In this document: positions 9,796 through 30,041 of the stretch, piece after piece
Numbering within the stretch: position 1 is the stretch's first letter
Layout of the letters: the number at the start of each line of letters is the position of its first letter
Source of the DNA: Ktedonobacterales bacterium
Lineage (GTDB): Bacteria; Chloroflexota; Ktedonobacteria; Ktedonobacterales; JADMIN01
Length of the DNA stretch: 32,000 nt
Reading direction: 5' to 3'
Assembly (NCBI GenBank): GCA_030167145.1
Contig: CP126532.1
Location: forward strand, 3,270,001 to 3,302,000
Translations under genes and position numbers: made by a program
The notes under the pieces: model-generated
Told to the model about the DNA's origin: nothing
The model's input: only the letters and a program-made list of their open reading frames with translations
The model's database searches: none

Positions 9796-9916
9796 ACGAC
9801 GTGTAGCCCTCCTGCCCGGCCCCGACACAAGGCGCGCCGTTGCGCCTGCCGGTGGCTCCGAGCGATGCGAAAAGTGGGAGCGATGGGGCGCGGCGCGCGC
9901 CGTCTCCCCGCCGTGC

Positions 9917-9989: not shown

Positions 9990-10065
<76 letters not shown>

Positions 10066-10103
10066 GTGGCCAGCCGCACGCTGGGGGCGCGCTGGCGAGC
10101 ATT

Positions 10104-10133
10104 AGTGTACCATCTCTGGCGTGGCGCTGTCAA
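10104..10133 (-). promoter_or_regulatory. tRNA-Phe promoter TTGACA-18 nt-TACACT with a TG extended -10
   Basis: The minus strand reads cgcgTTGACAgcgccacgccagagaTGgTACACTaatgc. The -10 ends about 38 nt upstream of the mature tRNA 5' end. Confidence 0.6.
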
Positions 10134-10154
10134 CGCGCGCCGATGTAGCAAGCG

Positions 10155-10178
10155 GCAGGAGCTTCATGAAGCTCCTGC
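10155..10178. terminator. perfect 24-nt palindrome just downstream of the TIR-membrane gene stop codon
   Basis: The sequence is gcaggagcttca|tgaagctcctgc. It sits 2 nt after the TGA (10181..10183, minus strand) and before the tRNA-Phe promoter. There is no U-tract. Confidence 0.5.
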
Positions 10179-10180
10179 GA

Positions 10181-11668
10181 TCAGTCGGAGGGTGAAGGGG
10201 TGGTGGCTGAGCCAGTGGGCGTGGTCACTTTCGCTCTCCGGTTCATGACATGATTGAGGCCATCAATGACCTCAACCGTACCCACAATGAGCAACATCAG
10301 GCCCAGGATGACCGCGCCGGCAATACGCCCAATGTATTCGCCGAGATGGCTTCCGATGACGGTAGATGGATTAGTATCGGTCTTGACGCCATTGTAGCCG
10401 TCCATAAATGACCTGACGCTGAATTCAACAGCGACTCCGATATAGTGGCCGAGGAAAGATCCAGCCAAGGCGCCGACCAAGACCCCAATGGCGCACAGGA
10501 TGATGCCGATGAGGATACCCGCAACCTGCCTGGCAGTAGGCTTCTTGGGCTTGAAAATACCGCGGAAGAATCGTTTGGTCTGAGCCTGGATATGCGGAAT
10601 GATGCGCTCGCTGAACAGTTTTCCAATCGCATCGCCCGCGTATCCGCCGCGACGCATGCCAATGATACCCACGATAATTGCGAGGAGGGCGGCCTCGGAG
10701 AGGCCGATTTGCGTTTGGCTAAACGATGTCAGGACATACTGAAAGATCAAGAGGACGACCATTGCTCCGACCATGAAACCGATGAAAGCCCCAAAACAGC
10801 CCAGGTCGTCTTCCGCGGTTATCATTGTCTGCCTGACGCGAAGGACCGCTCTCAGCGAGGCAAAGAATGGTACTTTGAGGGCGCCGCCCATGACGCCGCC
10901 CATGACGGCCCCAAGGAAGGCGGTAACGGCGACAACCCATGCGGGATTTACGCCATTGGGAATGTTTTCGACAATGCTCGCGAAGACGCCGATGTTGCCG
11001 CCAATCGCGAGTCCGATGAGTTCTCCGATGAGGATCCTGCGATTGAGCCGCTTCTTCCGTTGCTGCGCAGCAACCCGTTCTTGCCTATTCTTTTCGGTTC
11101 TGAGGAGTAACGCCTGTCGCTCTTGCTCGATGCGGGCCAATTCCGCTTGCCGCTCTTGTCCGAGCTGAAGCAATCGCTGCTGTTCTTCTTGTTCGCGTTG
11201 CCGTTCTTGCACATGCGATTGCACTTCGATAGCGTGGACAATCTTCTCGGCGTTGTCCTGGATGCTGGCGTCGCTGGAAATCTGCACGCCATTGTGCGAC
11301 TTGAGTGCGTCAATGTCTTCTGGCAGTTCTGGAAAGCTGGCGCCATCGAGCAGAATGGGGATAATGGGAATGGACTCACGTATTGCCAGCGCGATCTCGA
11401 CATGAACAAAGTCGCCAGGGTTATCAATGCGTCGTTCCGCGCTATTGGCTGGATTCGGCGCAGCCCATTGTGATCCGACAACCGCGAGTAGCACATCGCT
11501 GCTTTTGATATAGCGCTCGATTTCCTTGGGAAATATGACTCCTGGAAAGAACGAATCTAAGTCCATAATTATTTGTTCTTTGCCAAAGCGTTTGGCCAGT
11601 TCATCAAAAAGAGGTCTGCAAAATTGCGCGCTATCATCGCGCCGATAGGAAATGAAGATGGTCGGCAT
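10181..11668 (-). CDS. TIR domain - coiled coil - polytopic (about 6 TM) glycine-zipper membrane protein
   Basis: The N-terminus MPTIFISYRRDDSAQFCRPLFDELAKRFGKEQIIMDLDSFFPGVIFPKEIERYIKSSDVLLAVVGSQWA...DFVHVEIALAIRESIPIIPILLDG fits the TIR_2-type pattern. Next comes QERQREQEEQQRLLQLGQERQAELARIEQERQALLLRTEKNRQERVAAQQRKKR. Six hydrophobic G/A/I/V-rich segments follow, with GxxxG spacing (for example AFLGAVMGGVMGGAL and ILCAIGVLVGALAGSFLG). I place the start at ATG 11668 (GGAGGA 8 nt upstream); ATG 11683 is the alternative. Confidence 0.8.
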   Translation of the reverse strand: MPTIFISYRRDDSAQFCRPLFDELAKRFGKEQIIMDLDSFFPGVIFPKEIERYIKSSDVLLAVVGSQWAAPNPANSAERRIDNPGDFVHVEIALAIRESIPIIPILLDGASFPELPEDIDALKSHNGVQISSDASIQDNAEKIVHAIEVQSHVQERQREQEEQQRLLQLGQERQAELARIEQERQALLLRTEKNRQERVAAQQRKKRLNRRILIGELIGLAIGGNIGVFASIVENIPNGVNPAWVVAVTAFLGAVMGGVMGGALKVPFFASLRAVLRVRQTMITAEDDLGCFGAFIGFMVGAMVVLLIFQYVLTSFSQTQIGLSEAALLAIIVGIIGMRRGGYAGDAIGKLFSERIIPHIQAQTKRFFRGIFKPKKPTARQVAGILIGIILCAIGVLVGALAGSFLGHYIGVAVEFSVRSFMDGYNGVKTDTNPSTVIGSHLGEYIGRIAGAVILGLMLLIVGTVEVIDGLNHVMNRRAKVTTPTGSATTPSPSD

Positions 11669-11708
11669 AGATTCATCCTCCATAGGTCAATGTTGGCTTG
11701 TTGCCGAC

Positions 11709-11737
11709 AGTCTAGCAGATCATGGCGTCTCCGGCAA
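11709..11737 (-). promoter_or_regulatory. candidate promoter TTGCCG-17 nt-TAGACT for the TIR-membrane gene
   Basis: The minus strand reads cagcTTGCCGgagacgccatgatctgcTAGACTgtcggc, about 40 nt upstream of ATG 11668. Confidence 0.4.
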
Positions 11738-11856
11738 GCTGATAACGTAAGAGGAGGATGAGAAGACAGTACAACCTGGCATACAGCACTTTGCGTATGG
11801 CATACTTCAGGCACGAGTAGTTATGTAGCGAACGTGCGAAAAGAAGGCGGAACATC

Positions 11857-14262
11857 ATGGCGTCACTGCATATTTTTGTCAGCCACCACCGCACTGACGA
11901 TACCTTCTGCGCCGCGTTGGTTGAGGCGCTACAGAAGGCCGGGGCAGATATCTCTTATGATCGTGATAGCCTGGAGACCGCTGAGGCGCGTACACTACTT
12001 GAGCAGACGATTCGGCGGCGACCAGTGTTCGTGGTGGTGCTGTCACCCGATGCACTCGCCTCCGCACGAATCCGAGAAGAGTGTGAGTGGGCGTCTTCCC
12101 AATACATGCTGCATCCAGAACGTTCGCGGATCGTTTTGCAAGTAGTGGCGCGTGCGGTTGATGAAGAGCGTGTTTGGCCGACTCTATCAGCATTTGGCCG
12201 CCTTGAGGAAAGCCACAATACGCCATTGTCGCCAGAAGCGGCTATTCGCCATGCGCTCTCTCGTCTGGAACTCTCGCTTCCGGGCGAAGGACATACCACA
12301 CTGCCGGCCGACTCGTCTAGGCTAGAGCATCTCTTAGCGCGCGGAACAGCGCTCCGTTTACAATACCGATTTCAAGAAGCACAGAGCATCTACGAAACGG
12401 CGACAAAACTCGCGCCGGAATCTGTATCGGCCTGGAATGGTAAGGCGTGGGCATTGCTGAATTGCAATCAATTTGCCGAATCGCTGCTTGCGAGCGAAGA
12501 ATCCCTGAGGCGCGAGACGCAGGATGCGGTTGCCTGTACCTATAAGAGCGCGGCACTGGATAGCTTGAAGCGAACTGACGAAGCCCTGGCGTGTGCGGAG
12601 CAGGCGCTGAGCATTGACCCCAATCTAGCCCTCGCCTGGAATAACAAAGGCGTTATCCTCAATGAGTTACAGCGAACTGGCGAAGCGCTGGCGTGTTATG
12701 GCCGAGCGGCAGCCATTGACCCCAATTATGCTATCGTGTGGAGCAATCAGGGATGGGTTCTCATTGCCAGGCGGCAGTATGAAGAAGCTTTGGTCTATAT
12801 CGAGCGTGCGCTGGCCATTGACCCCAATCTGGCTCTCGCCTGGAATAACAAGGGAATTATTCTCGAGAACACGCAGCGTGCTGACGAGGCGCTGGCGTGT
12901 TATGACCACGCGCTGGCGCTTGACCCAGTCTCGGTCTTTGCCTGGACCAATAAGGGGTTCAATCTCAACACCGAGAAGCGCTATGAGGAAGCGCTGGCGT
13001 GTGTCGAGCAGGCGCTGGCGCTTGACCCTACGTACATTTTTGCCTGGAGTTGTAAGGGTGCTGTTCTGGACGGCATGCAGCGCTATGAAGAGGCGCTGGC
13101 GTGTGTTGAGCAGGCGCTGGCGCTCGACTCGAAGTCCGCTGCTATCTGGAACAGCAAAGGGGCTGCTCTCGACAGGTTGCGTCGCACCGAGGAAGCCCTT
13201 GCCTGTTATGACCAGGCGCTGGCGCTTGACCCCAACTTTGTTTTTGCCTGGAACAACAAGGGACTTCATCTCGGTAACGTACAGCGATATGAAGCCGCGC
13301 TACGTTGTTTTGATCAAGCCTTGGCCATTGACGCGAAAATGGCCATATCGTGGAGATATAAAGGCAATATACTCAACAAGTTAGAACGCTACGAGGCGGC
13401 GTTGCGTTGTTTTGACGAGGCCATAGCGCTTGATCCCAATGACCTGCGTGTCTGGAATGACAAAGGTGATGCGCTGAATAGCTCGCAACAATATGAAGAA
13501 GCCCTGGTGTGTTATGACCGTGTGCTGGCGCTTGATCCCAACAACCTGTATGCTTGGAATCATAAGGGAGATACGCTAAAAGCCTTAGAACGGTATGAAG
13601 AAGCGCTCGCAAGTTATGACCATGCACTGGCGAGTGATCCCCAAAGCATATACGCCTGGAACTCCAAGGGAGATGTGCTGTACACCTTACAACGCTATAA
13701 GGAGGCAGTGCGTTACTATGACCAGGTGATAGCGCTGGTTCCCATCAACATGTACGCGTGGAATGCCAAGGGGAACGCGCTTGAGCGCTTGCGGCGCTAT
13801 GATGAAGCTCTAGCTTGCTTCAACCATGTGCTGGACAGTGAACCCAACCACCTTTACGCCTTGTTTAGTAAGGCGCGGACCTACTTCATTGCGCACCAGT
13901 ATGAAAATGCGCTTGCCGCGTATGACGAGTACCTGATTCTGGAGCCAACTGATACTGCGGCATGGATCAACAAGGCTGACTCTCACCGACGATTGGAGCA
14001 GTATGAAGAGGCGCTGATCTGCTATGACCACGCGCTGCGTATCAATCCTCACTATGCGCCTGCCTACGTAGGCAAAGGCATCACCCTGAATGACACGAAG
14101 CGCTACAATGAGGCTCTCACCTGCTTTGACCAGGCGCTCGCCATTGATCCACTATCCTATGTTGCTTGGTATAACAAAGGGACGGCTCTGAAGAACCTGG
14201 GCAAGAGGAAGGAATCTAGCGACGCATATGAGCGCGCGAAGGAACTGGAAGCCATTTCGTAA
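11857..14262 (+). CDS. TIR domain protein with a C-terminal array of about 19 TPR repeats
   Basis: The N-terminus MASLHIFVSHHRTDDTFCAALVEALQKAGADISYDRDSLETAEARTLLEQTIRRRPVFVVVLSPDALASARIREECEWA fits the TIR_2-type pattern. From about aa 165 to the end there is a 34-aa periodicity with the consensus AWnnKGxxLxxLqRYEEALACYDqALALDPn. Confidence 0.85.
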   Translation: MASLHIFVSHHRTDDTFCAALVEALQKAGADISYDRDSLETAEARTLLEQTIRRRPVFVVVLSPDALASARIREECEWASSQYMLHPERSRIVLQVVARAVDEERVWPTLSAFGRLEESHNTPLSPEAAIRHALSRLELSLPGEGHTTLPADSSRLEHLLARGTALRLQYRFQEAQSIYETATKLAPESVSAWNGKAWALLNCNQFAESLLASEESLRRETQDAVACTYKSAALDSLKRTDEALACAEQALSIDPNLALAWNNKGVILNELQRTGEALACYGRAAAIDPNYAIVWSNQGWVLIARRQYEEALVYIERALAIDPNLALAWNNKGIILENTQRADEALACYDHALALDPVSVFAWTNKGFNLNTEKRYEEALACVEQALALDPTYIFAWSCKGAVLDGMQRYEEALACVEQALALDSKSAAIWNSKGAALDRLRRTEEALACYDQALALDPNFVFAWNNKGLHLGNVQRYEAALRCFDQALAIDAKMAISWRYKGNILNKLERYEAALRCFDEAIALDPNDLRVWNDKGDALNSSQQYEEALVCYDRVLALDPNNLYAWNHKGDTLKALERYEEALASYDHALASDPQSIYAWNSKGDVLYTLQRYKEAVRYYDQVIALVPINMYAWNAKGNALERLRRYDEALACFNHVLDSEPNHLYALFSKARTYFIAHQYENALAAYDEYLILEPTDTAAWINKADSHRRLEQYEEALICYDHALRINPHYAPAYVGKGITLNDTKRYNEALTCFDQALAIDPLSYVAWYNKGTALKNLGKRKESSDAYERAKELEAIS

Positions 14263-14336
14263 GGAGTTGGCTTCGCGTGAAGCTGGATTCCCTGGGCGCC
14301 AGGCGCGAGTAGTCGTGTTCGTTCACTTGTGGATGA

Positions 14337-14375
14337 GGCGTCCGGCGGACCGGTGCGTCGCCGGACGCCCCTACG
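14337..14375. terminator. 11-bp hairpin carrying copy 3 of the GGACGCCCCTACG motif, between convergent genes
   Basis: The hairpin is ggcgtccggcg(14337..14347)-11 nt-cgccggacgcc(14359..14369), followed by cctacga. It lies between the TPR gene stop (14262) and the arginase stop (14396). Confidence 0.55.
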
Positions 14376-14395
14376 ACTGTCGTATGGAGCGCATG

Positions 14396-15576: not shown

Positions 15577-16881
15577 GTGGACGACTTTGACATCGAGGTG
15601 ACACGGCTGCGGCGGGGCAGAGATGGCGCGCCGCCGGATGCGAGCGGCGTGACGGTCGCGCCCGATCCGCGCCGCCCGCGCGGGGATTCGCCACTGACCG
15701 ACCGTAGGAACACACGCACACGGCTGCTAGGCACGCTGGGCGCGGCGTGCGCGCTGCTGATCGCGCTGGCGGTGCTGGCCTCCACCGTGCCGCAGGCGCG
15801 CGATACTCTGCGTGGCATCGTCTACGGGCCGACCGCCACGCCGACGGCGACGCTGGGGCTGGGCGAACCGATCGTGTTCTTCGAGCATATGGTCCCCTGG
15901 GGGACGCTGAAGGTCAATGGTACGCAGGTGACGGTGTTAGATTTGGCGAATCCAGCATTTGCGCCTTCGGATGGATCGATAAGTTTTACAACCATTTTGC
16001 CACGCGGGCGCAATATGATTACTTACGACGCCGCGCCATGGCCGTCGCTGCGCTGTGTGCTGATGGTGCCAATTGCGGCGGGCAAGAGCACCTGTCCGCT
16101 GGTGCAACCTAGCCAAGATCAGCAGACGCATGTGATAGGCGAATCGCGGCTGGTGGACCTGGGCGCGACTGTGGATAACCTGCCGCCGGATGCGCTGGCG
16201 TCGCTGAAGAGCACAGTGACGCATCTCTTCAACGAATCCAGCGCCCCCGCGACGGTGCAGCCGGGGGAGCAGTACCTGACGGCGGATGGCACAACGGCGA
16301 CGGCGCAGCAACCGCTGCTGGCGACACTCTACCGCAAGGTGTTGGATGGGCAGTGTGGCGGCATCTGCCAGGTGGAGGGCGTGTCACCCGCGCGGATCGA
16401 TTTGTGGCCGGTCATCGTGGGGGTTGAGGAAGGCTATACATACACCACCACCGATGGAACGGTGATAGCCGCGAATGTGCCACTCGTGCCGCAGAAGCTA
16501 CGGCAGTCGAGCACGCCAGTTGATCAGTATACGGTATCGCTGTCTTGGAATGCTGGTTGGCAAGCAACAGTTGACGAAACATATACGACTCCACTGAGCT
16601 GCTACGCCGCGACCTACTGGCTGAATGGCGCATATGGCGGCACTATCGTACCGCAGATGACGGCGCAGTGGGCGGCGGCGAATCCAGCCGATGGCTGTGT
16701 GACGCGGGTGCAATTGATCGATACAGCGAACCAAACGCAAGGGCCGCCGATGTATCTGCTCTATCGCTTCGGCCAGATGTTCGTGGTGAATCAGTTGGCG
16801 GCAAGCTACTTCACCGGCATGCCCTTCGCCAACGCCTATGCCGAGGCGCTGGCGCAGCAGATCATTGCGCAGCACGCCTGA
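15577..16881 (+). CDS. hypothetical single-pass membrane protein, paralog 1 of 3 (short cytoplasmic N-terminus, one TM helix, Cys-containing extracytoplasmic domain)
   Basis: MDDFDIEVTRLRRGRDG...RRNTRTRLLGTLGAACALLIALAVLAS is a positive stretch followed by a TM helix. The remaining roughly 360 aa contain six Cys residues. The protein is collinear with the next two ORFs. I recognise no named family. Confidence 0.75.
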   Translation: MDDFDIEVTRLRRGRDGAPPDASGVTVAPDPRRPRGDSPLTDRRNTRTRLLGTLGAACALLIALAVLASTVPQARDTLRGIVYGPTATPTATLGLGEPIVFFEHMVPWGTLKVNGTQVTVLDLANPAFAPSDGSISFTTILPRGRNMITYDAAPWPSLRCVLMVPIAAGKSTCPLVQPSQDQQTHVIGESRLVDLGATVDNLPPDALASLKSTVTHLFNESSAPATVQPGEQYLTADGTTATAQQPLLATLYRKVLDGQCGGICQVEGVSPARIDLWPVIVGVEEGYTYTTTDGTVIAANVPLVPQKLRQSSTPVDQYTVSLSWNAGWQATVDETYTTPLSCYAATYWLNGAYGGTIVPQMTAQWAAANPADGCVTRVQLIDTANQTQGPPMYLLYRFGQMFVVNQLAASYFTGMPFANAYAEALAQQIIAQHA

Positions 16882-16940
16882 GCATGTACGGCTGATAGAG
16901 ATGATGGGCAATAGTGAGCGTGAGAGGTAAGGAGCGCGCG

Positions 16941-18260
16941 ATGGATGACTTCGAGATCGAGCGCACGCGGCTGCGTCCTGAGAGAGATGGCGCGTCACCG
17001 GAGGCGAGCGGCGTCACGCTCGCACCCGATCCGCACCGCCCGCGCGACGATTCGCCGCTGGCTCCGCATCGCAGGAACACACGCACGCGACTGCTAGGCA
17101 CACTGGGCGCGGCGTGTGCGGTGCTGGTGGCGCTGGTGCTGCTGGCCTCCACAGTGCCCCAGGCGCGCGACACCTTTCGAGGCCTGATTTCGGGGCCAAC
17201 GGCGACGCCAACGGCGACACTGGGGCTGGGCGTGCCAATCGTCTTCTTCGAGCATCTGGTTCCCTGGGGCACGCTGACAGTCAATGGCAAGCCAGTGGTG
17301 GCGCTGGATCTGGCGAACCCTTCATATTCGTCAGATGGCTCCGGGAGCTTTTCGCAGATTCTGGCGCGCGGGAAGAACACGATTGCCTACGATGCGCCGC
17401 CGTGGCCTCCGGTGCGTTGTGTGCTGCTGGTGCCTATCGTGGCGGGTAAGGATACCTGCACGCTGGCGCAGCCGACCGACCAGCAGCTTCCACGCATGGT
17501 GGGTGCTTCGCGGTTAGTAGACCTCGGCGCGACGATAGACACGTTGCCGCCCGATGCGCTGGCGTCGCTGAAAAGCGCGGCGGCGCACCTTTTCAACCAA
17601 TCCAGCGCGCCGGTGACGGTGCAGCCGGGAGAGCAGTATTTGACAGCGGATGGCACAACGGCGACGGCGAACCAACCGCTGCTAGCGACACTCTACCGCA
17701 AGGTGTGGGACGGGCAGGGGCAGGATCCCTGGTTTCATTGCGGGAGCATCTGCCCGGTGAATGGAGGGTCGCAGGCGCTGTCAGATGTGTGGCAGCTTGA
17801 AGCGGTGATCGCGAAAGGCTATCGCTACACCACGACCGCCGGAGCAGTGGTGCTTGCCGATGGCGCGCTGCTGCCGCCGAAGGTGACGGAGAATGGGTCC
17901 GCTGACGAAGATGCCTTTACGGCGACGTGGAATAATGGTTGGCAGGTGGCAAGCGGGAAAGTTGATAAGAGTCCATTGAGTTGTTCCGCGGAAATGTATT
18001 GGCTTGGCTACTATACCGGAGCGCCTGGCCCTCAAGAGACGGGCCAATGGGCGGCGGCGAATCCCGCCGATGGCTGTGTGGTGCGGATGCAATTGATCGA
18101 TACAGCGAACCAAACACCAGGGTCGCCGATGTATCTGCTCTATCGCTTCGGCCTGTTGTTCAATGTCAACCAGGCGGCGGCAAGCTACTATAGTTATCTG
18201 CCGTTCGCGAACCCGTATGCGGAGGCGCTGGCGCAGCAGATCATTGCGCGGTACGCCTGA
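16941..18260 (+). CDS. hypothetical single-pass membrane protein, paralog 2 of 3
   Basis: I place the start at ATG 16941 (MDDFEIERTRL, AAGGAG 7 nt upstream), not the track start 16914. The N-terminal roughly 255 aa and C-terminal roughly 70 aa are very similar to paralog 1. Confidence 0.75.
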   Translation: MDDFEIERTRLRPERDGASPEASGVTLAPDPHRPRDDSPLAPHRRNTRTRLLGTLGAACAVLVALVLLASTVPQARDTFRGLISGPTATPTATLGLGVPIVFFEHLVPWGTLTVNGKPVVALDLANPSYSSDGSGSFSQILARGKNTIAYDAPPWPPVRCVLLVPIVAGKDTCTLAQPTDQQLPRMVGASRLVDLGATIDTLPPDALASLKSAAAHLFNQSSAPVTVQPGEQYLTADGTTATANQPLLATLYRKVWDGQGQDPWFHCGSICPVNGGSQALSDVWQLEAVIAKGYRYTTTAGAVVLADGALLPPKVTENGSADEDAFTATWNNGWQVASGKVDKSPLSCSAEMYWLGYYTGAPGPQETGQWAAANPADGCVVRMQLIDTANQTPGSPMYLLYRFGLLFNVNQAAASYYSYLPFANPYAEALAQQIIARYA

Positions 18261-18360: not shown

Positions 18361-19635
18361 GTGGACGACACTGAGTTCGAGGTCGGGGATCTCCAGCGCG
18401 AGGACGGCGGCGAAGCTGAGCATGCGGACGCGCGCAGGGCCGGATTGTTCGCGCGTTCGCGCCGGGTGCGCGGCATCCTCGTCGTTGGCTGTGTGCTGCT
18501 GGTGGCGGCGCTGCTGCTGGCCGCGCTCCCCAACTCGCGCGATACGCTGGCGAGTCTCTTCGGCAGGGCTACGCCGCCATCCGCCACGCAAGGGGTCAAG
18601 GCCGAGGCATATTACTTCGTCAATGGCGTGCCCTGGGGCACACTGCTGGTGGACGGCCACCCGAACACTACTACTCCACTCGTTCTTCAGCCTGGCCGTT
18701 ATACCATCAGCTACAACGCCGCGCCGTTCCGTCCGCTGCGCTGTGTGCTCAGCCTGCCAAAAGTGGATGCAGATACTTGTCGTATCACGTCGGTTTCGCT
18801 GCCATCTATGACCGACCAGGGGACGCCAGAGGACGGCTATGCTTCCGCGATAGATCTGCGCGCAGATCTATCTGGCCTGCCATCAGATCAGTTTCAGGCG
18901 CTGCAAACCGCCATCGAGGCTGCTGTAACAACAACGCTCCCACCCGCGACGGTACAGCCCGGCGACCACTACGAGGGTGCGGACGGCAGCGCACAGATTG
19001 CCACGCGGGCGCTGATCGCCACGATCAGTTACTATCCCGATACCGCCGCTGGGTTGGTGAATGGCGTGTATCAGGGCACCCTTTGCCGTATCATGCTCTG
19101 CCAGAGTGCGAACGAACGCTACGATCCGCAACAGGATTGGGGTGTGGAAACACCTGTCGCCGCCCACTGGCAATTCACCACGCCTGACGGCCAGGTGATC
19201 GCAGCGCCGCCAGCCAGCAATCCGAACAGTGGCGCATATGACCAGGGAGCCTGGGAGGGCGCTACCGTGCAGTGGAATAATGGCTGGCAGGTTAGCGATA
19301 CCATCGCCGATCCCACCAGCCAACAGGCGTACAATGCGTCATGCAATCTCGCTGCTAGCGCCACCTACGCCATTTCGCGAGCGCAGCAGCCCACTGCCAG
19401 TAATCCTGAGGTGATGGAGGTAGATGCGGACACACCCGCATCAGGCTGCCTCATCGCATGGGCGCCCGCGCCCGCGCTCGGTGTGTACCCGAAGTGGAGC
19501 TATCTGCTCTATCGCTTCGGCGTGCTGCTGGCGGCCAACGATCAGGCGCACTACAACTTCCCGCTACTGCCCGTGGCCACCAAGGGCGAGCGTGCGCTGG
19601 CGCAGCAATGGGCGGCGCGGCAAGGTCTGGCGTGA
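18361..19635 (+). CDS. hypothetical single-pass membrane protein, paralog 3 of 3 (most divergent)
   Basis: GTG start preceded by gggagggagcgcgcg. MDDTEFEVGDLQRE...ILVVGCVLLVAALLLAAL is the TM helix. It shares VPWGTLLVDG, the LRCVL...DTC pair, LPxDxxxxLxxxxxxxxxxxxxPATVQPGxxY, WNNGWQV, YLLYRFG and ALAQQ with paralogs 1 and 2. Confidence 0.75.
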   Translation: MDDTEFEVGDLQREDGGEAEHADARRAGLFARSRRVRGILVVGCVLLVAALLLAALPNSRDTLASLFGRATPPSATQGVKAEAYYFVNGVPWGTLLVDGHPNTTTPLVLQPGRYTISYNAAPFRPLRCVLSLPKVDADTCRITSVSLPSMTDQGTPEDGYASAIDLRADLSGLPSDQFQALQTAIEAAVTTTLPPATVQPGDHYEGADGSAQIATRALIATISYYPDTAAGLVNGVYQGTLCRIMLCQSANERYDPQQDWGVETPVAAHWQFTTPDGQVIAAPPASNPNSGAYDQGAWEGATVQWNNGWQVSDTIADPTSQQAYNASCNLAASATYAISRAQQPTASNPEVMEVDADTPASGCLIAWAPAPALGVYPKWSYLLYRFGVLLAANDQAHYNFPLLPVATKGERALAQQWAARQGLA

Positions 19636-28236: not shown

Positions 28237-28776
28237 ATGTCCATGACGATGTTGAACGCCCAATACACCCTCAGAGCCGCGCTCGCCGCCGCTCATGGGG
28301 TTCTCGAAGCGACGATGAGCGATGTCACCGACGATATTGCCAACCGACCTGCCCCCGGCAATGCCAATCCCATCGGCGCCAGCTACGCGCACGTCGCCCT
28401 CGCCGAAGATGCCATCGTCAACGGCCTGCTCCAGGGTAAATCGCCGCTGTGGTCAGGCGCCTGGGCGGGGCGCACCGGAACCGACAAGCCGATGCCGATG
28501 GCAGGCATGGTGCAGGGCGATATGGGCCAGTGGTATCACACCGTTCATGTGGATGTCGCCGCCTGTCGGGCCTATGCGCAGACCGTCTACGCGCAATCCG
28601 AAGCCTTCATTGGTGGGGTTGATGATGCTACGGTGGCGCGCGAGATCCAGACACCCATGGGGCCGATGTCGCTTGCCACCGCGTTCACCACGCTCGTCAT
28701 CGGCCACTGCAACAATCTCGCTGGCGAGATCTCGGCCATCAAAGGCGTCTTCGGCCTGCGCGGCTACCCCTTCTAA
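28237..28776 (+). CDS. DinB-like (DinB_2 superfamily) four-helix-bundle protein
   Basis: AAGGAG lies 7 nt upstream of the ATG. The size of about 179 aa, the helical pattern with spaced His residues (AAAHGVLE, SYAHVALAEDAI, IGHCNNLAGEIS) and the C-terminal GxxGxxGYPF fit. Family assignment is by resemblance only. Confidence 0.5.
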   Translation: MSMTMLNAQYTLRAALAAAHGVLEATMSDVTDDIANRPAPGNANPIGASYAHVALAEDAIVNGLLQGKSPLWSGAWAGRTGTDKPMPMAGMVQGDMGQWYHTVHVDVAACRAYAQTVYAQSEAFIGGVDDATVAREIQTPMGPMSLATAFTTLVIGHCNNLAGEISAIKGVFGLRGYPF

Positions 28777-28828
28777 CGACTACACACCTATCGCTGTGGG
28801 CGGCTCACATGGCCGCCTAAAACATCCA

Positions 28829-28855
28829 CGCCTTGACGGCGTAGCCGTCAAGGCG
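28829..28855. terminator. 12-bp perfect hairpin with a 3-nt loop, between convergent genes
   Basis: The hairpin is cgccttgacggc-gta-gccgtcaaggcg, between the DinB-like stop (28776) and the LamG-like gene stop (28911). Confidence 0.55.
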
Positions 28856-28910
28856 GCGCTGCGGCGGGTGACGGCGCGAGCCCAACGGTGTGAGTAGAGA
28901 GGCAGATCGT

Positions 28911-29708
28911 TTAGAGTGCGATAACTTTGAAGCTACTGACAGCGATTTGCAAACCGTTCCAGCACTCAATACCCACTGCTCCACTTGAGAGGAACTGATT
29001 GTCCGTCGCTTGCGTTACCGTGTGGCCGTCTATCAAGAACGCGATGTGGTTGCCTTTGACTTCCAAACGGTATACATGCCATCCTGTGTCTGGCGTGTAG
29101 TTCACACTTCCCAGCACATTGCTGCAACATGGAGCATCGCCGCCCGTATGGATGTCGGCGATTCCAGAAAATGGACGCTGCGCCGAGATATTGTCCACAC
29201 CGCCAATGTACCCATCTGACCCGCTATCCATGGTTATTGCTCGTGCGTATAAGCCGAAGCCCGCTGTGCAGCACCCGATATTCACGATTTGGATGCGTGC
29301 CTCAACCGCGTAATTTGCCACTGTTGGTTGATACGGAGGTGTGGCATCGGGGAAATCGTAACCACCGCTACCATTGCTCACCAGCATCCCATTGAGCACA
29401 TTCCACTGCGCCGTACCCGTCCAGCCATTCATGCCGCTCGACCAGTTGGCCTGGTAGAGCACTGTTCCTGGCGCTGACGGTGCGGAAGTAGCGGTAGCTG
29501 TAGTCTCGGAAGCCGTCGGCAAAGGGGTTACTGTCTGTGAAGTATTTTGCGTAGATTGGCCGGACGGTTGCGTAGGTTGCGATGCGCTGGAGGTCGTGGC
29601 TGTATCTTGGCTTCGCAAGAAACCTAGAATCGCGATCATTGAGGCGAGAATACCGAGAACAACTCCCACACGAACCACAGTTCGCCAGACGCCACTATCA
29701 TCATTCAT
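28911..29708 (-). CDS. membrane-anchored protein with an S/T/P/Q-rich linker and a concanavalin-A-like (LamG / DUF1080-type) domain
   Basis: The N-terminal helix is VVRVGVVLGILASMIAILGFL. The linker is SQDTATTSSASQPTQPSGQSTQNTSQTVTPLPTASETTATATSAPSAPG. Then come WNVLNGMLVSNG...YAVEARIQI...GFGLYAR...WHVYRLEVKGNHIAFLIDG, which resemble the DUF1080/LamG beta-sandwich pattern. Confidence 0.55.
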   Translation of the reverse strand: MNDDSGVWRTVVRVGVVLGILASMIAILGFLRSQDTATTSSASQPTQPSGQSTQNTSQTVTPLPTASETTATATSAPSAPGTVLYQANWSSGMNGWTGTAQWNVLNGMLVSNGSGGYDFPDATPPYQPTVANYAVEARIQIVNIGCCTAGFGLYARAITMDSGSDGYIGGVDNISAQRPFSGIADIHTGGDAPCCSNVLGSVNYTPDTGWHVYRLEVKGNHIAFLIDGHTVTQATDNQFLSSGAVGIECWNGLQIAVSSFKVIAL

Positions 29709-29934
29709 ACGTCATGTACTCGCCTTCGATTCTCATCGCAAATGCTCACGAGACGACACGACTCGTAGTTCTATACTATCAAACTGTGTCAATTGTATCC
29801 ATCGCGCGGCATATGCCCCTTCATAGAATCATCCAGTACGCCATATATGTCGCGCTCGCGTTGATACATCGTCCGTTACTTCCCATGCCTGTTTCTGCGT
29901 CATGGATGAGTTGCCCTGGCATCTCCCCCAGATG

Positions 29935-29944
29935 TGGTACACTA
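29935..29944 (+). promoter_or_regulatory. extended -10 box TGgTACACTa upstream of tRNA-CAT
   Basis: The sequence is cagatgTGgTACACTag, about 23 nt upstream of the tRNA 5' end. It is the same 10-mer (tggtacacta) as in the tRNA-Phe promoter. No convincing -35 is present. Confidence 0.4.
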
Positions 29945-29966
29945 GTAGCTGCGCGTAGCCGCGCCG

Positions 29967-30041
29967 GGGCCCATAGCTCAGCGGCAGAGCGGACGGCTCA
30001 TAACCGTTTGGTCGCAGGTTCGAACCCTGCTGGGCCCACCA
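29967..30041 (+). tRNA. tRNA with CAT anticodon (elongator Met, or Ile2 if lysidinylated), CCA encoded
   Basis: The sequence is GGGCCCA TA GCTC AGCGGCA GAGC G GACGG CTCATAA CCGTT TGGTC GCAGG TTCGAAC CCTGC TGGGCCC A CCA. Positions 1:72 are paired and the anticodon stem lacks the three consecutive G-C pairs, so it is not an initiator. Confidence 0.9.

What the first reader, a model, noticed from the sequence alone, without database searches (positions are those of the whole stretch)
10181..14262. Divergent pair of TIR-domain genes (TIR-coiled coil-6TM and TIR-19xTPR): candidate undescribed two-gene TIR immune/signalling module
Two adjacent genes are transcribed head-to-head from a 188-bp AT-rich spacer. 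Each begins with a TIR_2-type domain (FISYRRDD.../IFVSHHRTDD... beta-A strands, VLLAVVGS / VVVLSP beta-D strands). Each also has an acidic residue where the catalytic Glu of NADase TIRs sits (DFVHVEIALA; ARIREECEWA). One TIR is attached to a long TPR solenoid, which is a typical ligand- or peptide-sensing scaffold. The other is attached through a coiled coil to a glycine-zipper membrane domain, which is a typical membrane-perturbing effector. Established knowledge: bacterial TIR domains act as NAD+-consuming or signal-producing enzymes in Thoeris, CBASS, Pycsar, SPARTA and Avs-type defence, and TIR domains activate by homo- or hetero-oligomerisation. As far as I can recall, no named system pairs TIR-TPR with TIR-TM without a STAND NTPase, SIR2, Macro/SLOG or cyclase partner. 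My inference is a sensor (TPR) plus membrane effector that communicate through TIR-TIR assembly or a TIR-made nucleotide. The lower GC of the segment fits an accessory, horizontally acquired module.
Basis: partly seen in the sequence, partly recalled or inferred. Interest (0 to 1): 0.8.

Follow-up and report, generated by a model that had tools for sequence, protein, structure and literature searches.

The report
Two adjacent, unlinked TIR-domain genes
Two neighbouring genes in a Ktedonobacterales (Chloroflexota) genome each encode a real TIR domain with the catalytic glutamate, one fused to 19 TPR repeats and one to a membrane domain, but they are never found together elsewhere, so they are best read as two separate single-protein TIR sensors of already known kinds and not as a new two-gene immune system.

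Summary
ORF A (10181-11668/11683, minus strand) has a SARM1-like TIR, an ~80-residue helix and six TM segments. ORF B (11857-14262, plus strand) has a TIR and 19 TPRs. They diverge from a 188-bp spacer. Both pass Pfam TIR_2's gathering score, and both carry the catalytic Glu (A E96, B E75). Together they form a GC-poor block (0.54 against 0.64) beside tRNA-Phe.

The interpretation as a two-gene module is not supported. None of 46 B-type TIR loci in reference genomes has an A-type or TIR-TM neighbour. None of 83 A-type loci has a divergently adjacent TIR-TPR gene. No other partner gene recurs.

Each TIR is a modular head fused to varied C-terminal domains. The B-type is confined mainly to Ktedonobacterales and 'Chloroflexia' MAGs, with at least 10 paralogs in one MAG, mostly fused to TPRs. 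The A-type is widespread and usually followed by a linker, a TM segment and a variable domain. Single-protein TIR+TPR (E. coli TIR-II) and TM-containing TIR systems are already validated anti-phage defences.

The likeliest reading is two independent, self-contained TIR NADase sensor-effectors in one small accessory block. ORF A's membrane domain has no detectable homolog, and ORF B is an unusually divergent family member. Shared composition leaves a small chance that they cooperate.

The parts
9990..10065 (-). tRNA-Phe (GAA). It marks the left boundary of the GC-poor block. A promoter-like site (TTGACA-18-TACACT) lies at 10133-10104.
   Evidence: ARAGORN; Rfam tRNA 74 bits; promoter scan
10181..11683 (-). 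ORF A (TIR-TM protein). It is 500 aa from the first ATG. The probable true start is the ATG at 11668 (495 aa, WIG60389.1, GGAGG 8 nt upstream).
11264..11668 (-). ORF A TIR domain (aa 6-140 in 500-aa numbering). It is SARM1-like, with the motifs FISYRRDDS and DFVHVE96I.
   Evidence: Pfam TIR_2 37.5 bits; phmmer against PDB gives SARM1 at E 3e-6 with E96 opposite E642; AF2 pLDDT above 90; Foldseek top hits are SARM1 TIR with TM-score 0.80-0.85; Glu invariant in 21 sequences
11036..11263 (-). ORF A charged Q/E/R-rich stalk (aa 141-216). AF2 predicts one continuous helix that runs into TM1, probably a coiled coil.
   Evidence: sequence; AF2 helix 136-223 in 495-aa numbering, pLDDT 93-98
10253..11035 (-). 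ORF A membrane domain (aa 217-477). Six hydrophobic segments rich in G/A/I/V, with small-xxx-small motifs. Predicted topology is N-in/C-in with basic cytoplasmic loops. No homolog was detected.
   Evidence: hydropathy; only the TIR part has homologs among 5.8 billion proteins; phmmer against all ORFs of 130 loci finds only itself; AF2 pLDDT 45-65
11669..11856 (.). Divergent intergenic spacer of 188 bp, GC about 0.50. No significant promoter or operator signal was found. It contains an 11-nt duplicate of ORF B's start context.
11857..14262 (+). ORF B (TIR-TPR protein), 801 aa.
11857..12291 (+). ORF B TIR domain with its family-specific extension (aa 1-145). S69-x-R71-x-x-x-E75 stands in for the S-x-W-x-x-x-E motif. 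It differs from the family consensus at 7 of 30 conserved positions (W33S, G42A, W71R, P95Q and others).
   Evidence: Pfam TIR_2 41.9 bits; 778 representative relatives; E75 97% conserved; hhalign probability 95%; divergence statistics
12319..14259 (+). ORF B TPR solenoid (aa 155-800): 19 units of 34 aa, a 102-nt DNA period with copies 60-82% identical.
   Evidence: Pfam TPR_1 E 2e-120 with 17 stretches; in-register units; DNA repeat families D1-D5

Best explanation
The locus holds two independent, self-contained TIR-domain proteins that sit side by side in one small (~4.2 kb) GC-poor accessory block at a synteny breakpoint next to tRNA-Phe. It is not a dedicated two-gene system.

ORF B belongs to a TIR family that is largely confined to Ktedonobacterales and 'Chloroflexia' MAGs, occurs in many paralogs per genome, and is usually fused to a TPR array. 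By analogy with validated single-protein TIR+TPR defences, the inferred mechanism has three steps. The TPR solenoid binds a protein or peptide cue from an invader or from stress. That binding drives TIR self-association. The Glu75 active site then cleaves NAD+, causing depletion or signal production.

ORF A belongs to a widespread SARM1-like TIR subfamily built as cytoplasmic TIR, charged helical stalk, membrane anchor and variable domain. In ORF A the variable part is a unique six-TM glycine-rich domain. The inferred mechanism is that a membrane-level event changes the packing of the stalk and TM bundle, clusters the TIR domains and switches on the NADase through Glu96. Alternatively, the TM domain itself damages the membrane.

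Shown here: the domain composition, the conservation of the catalytic residues, the family distributions and the lack of conserved pairing. Inferred: NADase activity, the triggers and an immune role.
For: TIR calls exceed Pfam's cut-off for both proteins.

The catalytic Glu is present and conserved in both families.

ORF A's TIR is modelled with pLDDT above 90 and matches SARM1 TIR structures.

The pairing is absent elsewhere. In 46 B-type loci there is no A-type or TIR-TM gene within 10 kb and no recurrent neighbour family. Divergent membrane ORFs next to other TIR-TPR genes are unrelated proteins: DUF1345-like, rhomboid and histidine kinases. In 80 A-type loci (584 kb) and 3 contigs there is no divergently adjacent B-type TIR-TPR gene.

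Both TIR types behave as modular heads. The B-type is fused to TPR in 70 of 119 relatives, and also to FGE-sulfatase and beta-helix domains. The A-type is fused to FGE-sulfatase, PD40/WD40, PDZ, ankyrin, TctC and CHASE2 domains, usually across one TM segment.

The B-type family has many paralogs per genome: 10 loci in one MAG from a single narrow search pattern.

Literature: single-protein TIR+TPR (TIR-II) and TM-containing TIR systems protect E. coli and need the TIR active site (PMC11350192). TIR effectors fused directly to FGS, TPR and similar sensor domains are described in multicellular bacteria including Chloroflexi (PMC8195603).
Against: The two genes share the same atypical composition (GC 0.544 each; GC3 0.62 and 0.59, against 0.80-0.85 in neighbours), and the GC dip coincides exactly with the pair. 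That fits one joint acquisition.

They are divergently arranged around a short shared spacer, which would allow co-regulation.

One Ktedonobacterales protein (L047 10001-10945) fuses a B-type TIR to an A-type-like TIR, a weak hint that the two types can work together.

A two-gene TIR plus NADase-TPR system in which both genes are needed exists (BcTir/Tpr preprint).

The window has no defence-island context. PADLOC, NCBIfam and PHROGs give no system-level hit. An immune role therefore rests on analogy only.

ORF B is unusually divergent at conserved TIR positions, so it may not be a normal enzyme.
Confidence: 0.6

Rival explanations
1. The pair is a real but rare two-gene TIR system. TIR-TPR senses a cue and then activates the membrane-bound TIR-TM protein, either through TIR-TIR hetero-assembly or through a TIR-made nucleotide. 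The TIR-TM protein then kills or arrests the cell. The two genes would have been acquired together.
For: Both genes have identical atypical GC and similar GC3, and the GC-poor block equals exactly the two genes. They are divergent around a 188-bp shared spacer. One natural fusion of a B-type TIR with an A-type-like TIR exists (L047). TIR genes sometimes cluster (L117, L061, L004, L009, L048). The BcTir/Tpr system is a precedent in which both genes are required (bioRxiv 10.1101/2023.05.26.542521).
Against: No second instance was found in 46 + 80 + 3 loci. ORF A's membrane domain has no homolog anywhere, so there is no family of such effectors. ORF A contains no known signal-binding domain such as SLOG, Macro, SAVED or STING. 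In BcTir/Tpr the partner TIR lacks the catalytic Glu and the genes form a co-directional operon, whereas here both TIRs keep the Glu and the genes diverge. The two TIRs show no pairwise sequence similarity by BLASTP.
Confidence: 0.15
2. The proteins are not immune NADases. They would be signalling or scaffold proteins of a multicellular, developmentally complex bacterium, using TIR as a protein-protein assembly domain. Possible roles are kin or self recognition, programmed cell death during sporulation, or envelope-stress signalling.
For: The window holds only housekeeping genes, with no defence genes or mobile-element genes. B-type TIR is absent from plasmids and viral contigs, and A-type is rare there. 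The family is lineage-restricted and highly paralogous in filamentous Ktedonobacterales. The A-type architecture resembles a transmembrane receptor. Apoptosis-like systems in multicellular bacteria are discussed in PMC8195603.
Against: The catalytic Glu is invariant or nearly so in both families, which argues for enzymatic constraint and against pure scaffolding. ORF A's closest structural relative is the NADase SARM1. One A-type relative is cargo of an integrase/AlpA/PrimPol element, which is typical of defence cargo. Every bacterial TIR+TPR or TIR+TM system tested so far was anti-phage (PMC11350192).
Confidence: 0.15
3. One or both genes are decaying or non-functional relics. They would be recently acquired, poorly expressed accessory DNA under relaxed selection.
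For: ORF B deviates at 7 of 30 conserved TIR positions, including W33S, W71R and P95Q. Only 5 of 114 relatives are as divergent. GC3 is low compared with the host genes. ORF A's C-terminal domain is an orphan. ORF B's exact sequence is absent from the protein collection that holds ORF A. No convincing promoter was found in the spacer.
Against: Both reading frames are long and intact (500 and 801 codons). The 19 TPR units stay perfectly in register. The catalytic Glu is retained in both. ORF A has a strong Shine-Dalgarno sequence. ORF A's topology obeys the positive-inside rule throughout.
Confidence: 0.1

Closest known systems
E. coli TIR-II defence system (single protein with TIR + TPR; Nat Commun 2024, PMC11350192)
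   Same: ORF B has the same two-part architecture, TIR plus a TPR array in one polypeptide with no NTPase, and it keeps the catalytic Glu that those systems need. The paper reports TIR-II as the most widespread of its TIR systems and as working alone.
   Different: ORF B's TIR belongs to a subfamily largely confined to Ktedonobacterales and 'Chloroflexia' MAGs. ORF B has 19 TPRs, against 3-7 in most family members, and it diverges at conserved TIR positions. No phage-defence evidence exists for it.
SARM1-type TIR NADase domain (human SARM1, C. elegans TIR-1)
   Same: ORF A's TIR is most similar in sequence and in predicted structure to SARM1 TIR. It shares FISYRR, D-x-V-H-x-E-I with the Glu equivalent to E642, and the (I/V)-(I/V)-P-I ... 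LPED segment.
   Different: SARM1 regulates its TIR through ARM and SAM domains in a soluble octamer. ORF A instead has a long helical stalk and a six-TM domain. Sequence identity is only about 26-29%.
BcTir/Tpr two-gene anti-phage system (bioRxiv 10.1101/2023.05.26.542521) and the TPR-centred TIR assemblies of Burroughs & Aravind 2020, as cited there
   Same: It is a two-gene unit that pairs a TIR protein with an N-terminal NAD+-cleaving domain fused to C-terminal TPRs. That paper's figure legend lists TM among the partner-gene domains.
   Different: BcTpr's catalytic domain is MilB/CMP-hydrolase-like, not Pfam TIR_2. BcTir is a short soluble TIR whose catalytic Glu is replaced by Lys. The two genes form a co-directional operon that is conserved in Firmicutes. 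Here both TIRs keep the Glu, the genes diverge, and the pairing is not conserved.
Thoeris systems (ThsB TIR plus a signal-activated effector, including TM effectors and the TPR-bearing ThsI; bioRxiv 10.64898/2025.12.03.692087)
   Same: A TIR protein lies next to a membrane protein that could act as an effector, and TPR occurs in TIR-signalling contexts.
   Different: Thoeris effectors carry a signal-binding domain (SLOG, Macro, SLATT, DUF6650 and others) and no TIR domain. ORF A has a TIR and no such domain. The PADLOC ThsB and NCBIfam ThcB4 hits are far below family level: 19 bits, and 30 bits against a cut-off of 220.
TIR-effector fusions to sensor domains in multicellular bacteria (Kaur et al., eLife 2021, PMC8195603)
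   Same: The same logic applies: TIR acts as an N-terminal effector swapped onto FGS (FGE-sulfatase), TPR, WD40 and other sensor modules, these are often standalone genes, and they are enriched in Chloroflexi, cyanobacteria and actinobacteria. Both TIR types here show these fusions.
   Different: Most systems described there include a STAND or other NTPase, or effector-associated adaptor domains (EADs). ORF A and ORF B have neither.

Membership tests
TIR domain (Pfam PF13676 TIR_2) | Profile match above the curated gathering score | tested here: met
   ORF A scores 37.5 bits and ORF B 41.9 bits, against a cut-off of 28
TIR domain (enzymatic NADase type) | Glutamate at the catalytic position of the alpha-C helix (SARM1 E642 equivalent) | tested here: met
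   A's E96 aligns with E642 and is invariant in 21 sequences. B's E75 is 97% conserved in 119 relatives and aligns with the A-type Glu by hhalign at 95% probability. An initial phmmer alignment that put Q82 at this site was a shift caused by a SARM1-specific insertion.
TIR domain | Flavodoxin-like beta-alpha fold that matches solved TIR structures | tested here: met
   ORF A only: AF2 pLDDT above 90 over residues 1-135, and Foldseek top hits are SARM1 TIR with TM-score 0.80-0.85. For ORF B the single-sequence model failed (pLDDT 40), so the fold is inconclusive for B.
TIR NADase | NAD+ cleavage or cADPR-isomer production | not testable with these tools
   This needs a biochemical assay
Single-protein TIR+TPR defence (E. 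coli TIR-II type) | TIR and TPR array in one polypeptide with no other required gene | tested here: met
   The architecture is met in ORF B. 70 of 119 relatives share it. No conserved neighbour occurs in 46 loci.
Single-protein TIR+TPR defence (E. coli TIR-II type) | Sequence homology to the validated E. coli TIR-II protein, and anti-phage activity | not tested
Thoeris | A TIR (ThsB) gene paired with an effector that carries a signal-binding domain (SLOG/SIR2, Macro, SLATT and others) | tested here: not met
   No such domain appears in either protein or in the neighbours. PADLOC ThsB reaches 13-19 bits only. NCBIfam ThcB4 reaches 30 bits against a cut-off of 220.
BcTir/Tpr-type two-gene system | Conserved co-directional operon of a catalytically dead TIR-only protein with a MilB-like glycosidase-TPR protein | tested here: not met
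   The genes here are divergent, both TIRs keep the Glu, and ORF A carries a TM domain. No conserved pairing was found.
STAND / Avs / NLR-like (effector-NTPase-repeats) | A P-loop NTPase (NB-ARC, NACHT or AAA) between the effector and the repeats | tested here: not met
   No NTPase family was found in ORF B. The TPRs begin at about residue 155, directly after the TIR and its family-specific extension.
Proposed new 'TIR-TPR + TIR-TM' two-gene module | Recurrent adjacency of the two gene types in other genomes | tested here: not met
   0 of 46 B-type loci. 0 of 80 A-type metagenome loci. 0 of 3 contigs of the closest ORF A relatives.

The most novel reading that the evidence does not exclude
The two genes were acquired together and form a previously unseen minimal two-TIR system. 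A cytosolic TIR-TPR sensor would nucleate or chemically activate a membrane-anchored SARM1-like TIR whose unique glycine-rich six-TM domain breaches or senses the membrane. That would be a bacterial counterpart of TIR-TIR adaptor signalling at a membrane.
Probability: 0.12. Interest if true: 0.65.

Novelty: new member of a known kind. Interest (0 to 1): 0.3.

Why it matters
If the pair were a real module, it would be a minimal TIR-to-TIR relay ending at the membrane, and a useful model for how TIR domains pass signals to each other. The evidence instead points to two ordinary stand-alone TIR fusion proteins.

Three things remain of modest value. First, a TIR-TPR family expanded to at least 10 paralogs per genome in filamentous Ktedonobacterales looks like a receptor repertoire, and the held literature does not describe it. 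Second, SARM1-like TIR domains are widely built into transmembrane architectures with the layout TIR, stalk, TM segment and variable domain. Third, ORF A carries an orphan six-TM domain that could be tested as a membrane sensor or effector.

Tried and rejected
1. The phmmer alignment of ORF B to SARM1 put Gln82 at the catalytic site. I rejected this after the closest homolog P0030, the family alignments and hhalign all placed E75 there. The SARM1-specific loop had shifted the pairwise alignment.

2. Word-index homolog searches suggested that ORF B's TIR was an orphan, with one hit. The exhaustive HMMER search overturned this, finding 778 relatives.

3. I searched for att-like direct repeats or other insertion scars around 10066-14395 and found none.

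4. I tested for an empty site using four Ktedonobacterales relatives that share the aminotransferase-gatB-GDH block. Homology stops at ~9800-9824 and the far side differs in every genome, so no clean empty site can be defined.

5. Low GC is not a general trait of the TIR-TPR family. The mean gene-minus-flank difference is -0.02, and only 4 of 25 members are strongly GC-poor.

6. I followed up divergent multi-TM ORFs next to other TIR-TPR genes (L004, L009 and others). They are unrelated housekeeping membrane proteins.

7. The AF2 model of ORF A's membrane domain had pLDDT 45-65, too low for a fold comparison.

8. PADLOC, NCBIfam and PHROGs gave no system-level assignment. The plasmid and viral collections gave almost nothing.

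9. Scans of the spacer for promoters, terminators and operator-like repeats found nothing above chance. Rfam found only tRNAs.

10. The Burroughs & Aravind 2020 paper (J Bacteriol) could not be read because it is not held. Its content is cited only through the BcTir/Tpr preprint.

Full report
**What is there**

The window comes from a Ktedonobacterales (Chloroflexota) metagenome-assembled genome. ORF A is identical to NCBI protein WIG60389.1 (locus tag OJF49_003137) on a 5.07-Mb contig.

Two long ORFs lie head to head:
- ORF A is 10181-11683 on the minus strand, 500 aa.
- ORF B is 11857-14262 on the plus strand, 801 aa.

ORF A's likely true start is the second ATG, at 11668. It has GGAGG 8 nt upstream and matches the 495-aa NCBI call.

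Both proteins match Pfam TIR_2 above the curated cut-off: 37.5 and 41.9 bits against 28.

ORF B also carries a very strong TPR signal (TPR_1 E = 2e-120, 17 stretches). The array resolves into 19 units of exactly 34 residues, seen at the DNA level as a 102-nt period.

ORF A continues after the TIR with three parts:
- a Q/E/R-rich segment;
- six hydrophobic segments rich in Gly, Ala, Ile and Val;
- basic loops on alternate sides, giving a consistent N-in/C-in topology.

AlphaFold2 models the ORF A TIR (residues 1-135) and a single helix (136-223, 495-aa numbering) with high confidence, with pLDDT 93-98 up to about residue 210. The membrane part is helical but low-confidence, at pLDDT 45-65. Foldseek returns SARM1 TIR structures as the best matches, with TM-score 0.80-0.85 on the target.

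**Catalytic residue**

ORF A's 'DFVHVE96I' aligns residue for residue with SARM1 'DWVHKE642I'. That Glu is invariant in an alignment of 20 relatives plus SARM1.

That alignment was shifted by a SARM1-specific insertion. Three results place E75 at the catalytic position instead:
- The closest homolog, P0030, has 'LSPDATSSQWVDEEI', which aligns without gaps to ORF B's 'LSPDALASARIREEC'.
- In 119 family members the position of E75 is Glu in 97%.
- A profile-profile comparison of the two TIR families aligns E75 with the invariant A-type Glu at 95% probability.

ORF B is nevertheless an outlier in its family. It differs from consensus at 7 of 30 strongly conserved positions, including W33S, G42A, W71R and P95Q. 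The family median is 2, and only 5 of 114 members are as divergent.

**Families and distribution**

*ORF A.* Only the TIR part has relatives among 5.8 billion proteins (29 hits, 13-40% query coverage). The membrane domain has no detectable homolog there or in any of the 130 loci fetched later.

The A-type TIR is very common. It is typically an N-terminal cytoplasmic head followed by a charged linker, one TM segment and a variable domain. The variable domains seen include FGE-sulfatase, PD40/WD40 propellers, PDZ, ankyrin and TctC, and some relatives have the TIR C-terminal to CHASE2. Of 82 A-type ORFs, 50 have one TM segment. One relative, P0003, has a multi-TM tail like ORF A.

*ORF B.* Its TIR looked like an orphan in the word-index search. 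Exhaustive HMMER then found 778 representative relatives, 211 of them at E ≤ 1e-10. Of the top 119, 70 also carry TPR arrays.

A scan of one genome per species found 46 loci. Nearly all are in Ktedonobacterales or 'Chloroflexia' MAGs, with up to 10 loci in one MAG from one narrow pattern. Typical members have 3-7 TPRs, so ORF B's 19 is at the long end.

In the same genomes the B-type TIR is also fused to FGE-sulfatase and beta-helix domains. In one case it is fused to an A-type-like TIR.

**Test of the two-gene hypothesis**

I tested it in both directions.

| Loci examined | DNA searched | Result |
|---|---|---|
| 46 B-type TIR loci | up to 10 kb on each side | no A-type TIR gene and no TIR gene with multiple TM segments |
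| Same 46 loci, all flanking ORFs clustered | up to 10 kb on each side | nothing recurs except the TIR-TPR gene, its antisense shadow ORFs and generic abundant families; nothing clusters with ORF A |
| 80 A-type loci from metagenomes | 584 kb in total | none has a divergently adjacent B-type TIR-TPR gene |
| 3 contigs of ORF A's closest relatives | whole contigs (up to 10 kb flanks) | no TIR-TPR neighbour |

Two B-type loci (L004, L009) looked like the window, with a divergent ~5-TM ORF about 190-230 bp upstream. Those ORFs are a DUF1345-like protein and a rhomboid protease, unrelated to ORF A or to each other.

TIR genes do occasionally cluster. Examples are four in a row in L117, two in L061, a tandem pair in L048, and a second B-type TIR 1-2.5 kb from the TIR-TPR gene in L004 and L009. 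Sporadic adjacency of two TIR genes is therefore not surprising.

**Context**

The GC-poor segment runs from about 10,150 to about 14,350, which is exactly the two genes and their spacer.

| Feature | Value |
|---|---|
| GC of ORF A and of ORF B | 0.544 each |
| GC of flanks | 0.64 |
| GC3 of ORF A, ORF B | 0.62, 0.59 |
| GC3 of neighbouring housekeeping genes | 0.80-0.85 |

This is not a general trait of the TIR-TPR family. The mean gene-minus-flank difference is -0.02, and only 4 of 25 members are strongly GC-poor. The block is therefore plausibly recent accessory DNA, and the shared composition is the best argument that the two genes arrived together.

Several observations qualify that reading:
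- The block abuts the 5' side of tRNA-Phe and has no flanking repeats.
- The 32-kb window contains no integrase, transposase or defence gene. The neighbours are hemA, an M42 peptidase, GDH, gatB, an aminotransferase, arginase, a Rieske oxygenase, glutamine synthetase and Obg.
- In four relatives that share the aminotransferase-gatB-GDH block at 75-80% nucleotide identity, homology stops at ~9800-9824. The other side is different in each, with no tRNA-Phe and no TIR genes. The pair thus sits at a synteny breakpoint, and no clean empty site can be defined.

PADLOC, NCBIfam and PHROGs give no system-level hit. B-type TIR is absent from plasmids and viral contigs, and A-type is rare there. One A-type relative is cargo of an integrase/AlpA/PrimPol element.

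**Comparison with what is known**

- A systematic E. coli study validated twelve TIR-containing anti-phage systems. They include the single-protein TIR+TPR system TIR-II, reported as the most widespread in prokaryotes, and systems that contain TM domains. All depended on the TIR active site (PMC11350192).
- A preprint describes BcTir/Tpr. It is a conserved Firmicutes operon in which a TIR protein lacking the catalytic Glu works with a MilB-like NADase fused to TPRs, and both genes are required (bioRxiv 10.1101/2023.05.26.542521).
- The 2025 Thoeris survey lists many TM effectors, and a TPR-bearing effector, ThsI, that responds to TIR-made cADPR (bioRxiv 10.64898/2025.12.03.692087).
- Kaur et al. 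describe TIR effectors swapped onto FGS, TPR and other sensor domains in multicellular bacteria, including Chloroflexi (PMC8195603).
- I found no paper in the held library that mentions TIR domains in Ktedonobacteria.

**Conclusion**

The interpretation as an undescribed two-gene module is not supported, because the pairing is a singleton and each gene belongs to a family that behaves as a stand-alone TIR-plus-variable-domain protein.

My best explanation (confidence about 0.6) is two independent, self-contained TIR NADase sensor-effectors lying in one small accessory block:
- ORF B is a TIR-TPR protein of the TIR-II kind of architecture. TPR-mediated ligand binding would drive TIR assembly and NAD+ cleavage through E75.
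- ORF A is a SARM1-like TIR tethered by a helical stalk to a unique six-TM domain. That domain would either sense a membrane event or itself damage the membrane, with E96 as the catalytic residue.

Enzyme activity, triggers and an immune role are inferred, not shown.

The rivals are:
- a real but rare two-TIR module (about 0.15), supported mainly by the shared composition, the divergent layout and one natural B-type/A-type TIR fusion;
- a non-immune signalling or cell-death role in a multicellular bacterium (about 0.15);
- decay or relaxed selection (about 0.1), suggested by ORF B's unusual substitutions.

Noticed in passing
window 15577-16881, 16914-18260, 18361-19635 (+): Three tandem paralogous genes with no Pfam match. 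The first two are 67% identical, and the third is 31% identical to the second (E 2e-40). Each has an N-terminal 'MDDxExE' cytoplasmic tail, one TM segment, and a conserved C-terminal region (…ANPADGCV…YLLYRFG…). This looks like a lineage-specific membrane-anchored protein family of unknown function.
   Followed up: partly
window 28500-30000: A second GC-poor patch (0.55-0.58) next to tRNA-Met (29967-30041). It holds a DinB-family gene (28237-28776) and a weak 3-keto-disaccharide-hydrolase-like gene (28911-29708). It may be another small accessory insertion beside a tRNA.
   Followed up: no
window 11719-11729 and 11854-11864: An exact 11-nt duplicate (ATCATGGCGTC) of ORF B's start-codon context lies 135 nt upstream in the spacer. 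It opens a 6-codon mini-ORF (MASPAS*). It could be a remnant of a rearrangement, a leader peptide or chance; the rough chance expectation is about 0.01.
   Followed up: no
L047 10001-10945: One Ktedonobacterales protein (314 aa) has a B-type TIR at the N-terminus and an A-type-like TIR at the C-terminus (E 2e-23 and 3e-20). This is a single natural fusion of the two TIR types that are neighbours in the window.
   Followed up: partly
L004-L049: The B-type TIR family is almost confined to Ktedonobacterales and 'Chloroflexia' MAGs and is strongly paralogous. One MAG has 10 loci and another has 5, from one narrow peptide pattern. Several copies in long-read MAGs (L011, L019, L024, L036, L039, L040, L042, L044) are split by frameshifts, which may be sequencing errors or pseudogenes.
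   Followed up: partly
L117 951-9068; L061 810-3311: These metagenome contigs carry runs of TIR genes on one strand: four in L117 and two in L061. TIR genes can therefore form tandem clusters.
   Followed up: no
L003 310-6565 (and the 13.8-kb JGI contig): The closest relative of ORF A's TIR (P0002, TIR-coiled coil-TM-TctC) lies directly downstream of an integrase, an AlpA-like regulator and a PrimPol/DUF5906 gene. It appears to be cargo of a small integrative or satellite-like element.
   Followed up: no
P0027: This A-type TIR protein has an N-terminal EAD1 adaptor domain and roughly 130 residues of hydrophobic, TM-like sequence inserted inside the TIR domain, between the beta-C region and the catalytic helix. 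That is an unusual split-TIR membrane architecture.
   Followed up: no
window 11857-14262: ORF B's exact protein sequence is absent from the 15-billion-protein collection, although ORF A from the same contig is present from both NCBI and JGI. ORF B may have been called with another start, or not called at all, in the public annotations.
   Followed up: no
L132 14505-14849: In a relative that shares the aminotransferase-gatB-GDH block, a short B-type TIR ORF (111 aa, E 5e-14) lies just beyond the GDH gene, and several IS605-family transposases are nearby. B-type TIR genes therefore occur around this conserved block in different positions in different genomes.
   Followed up: no
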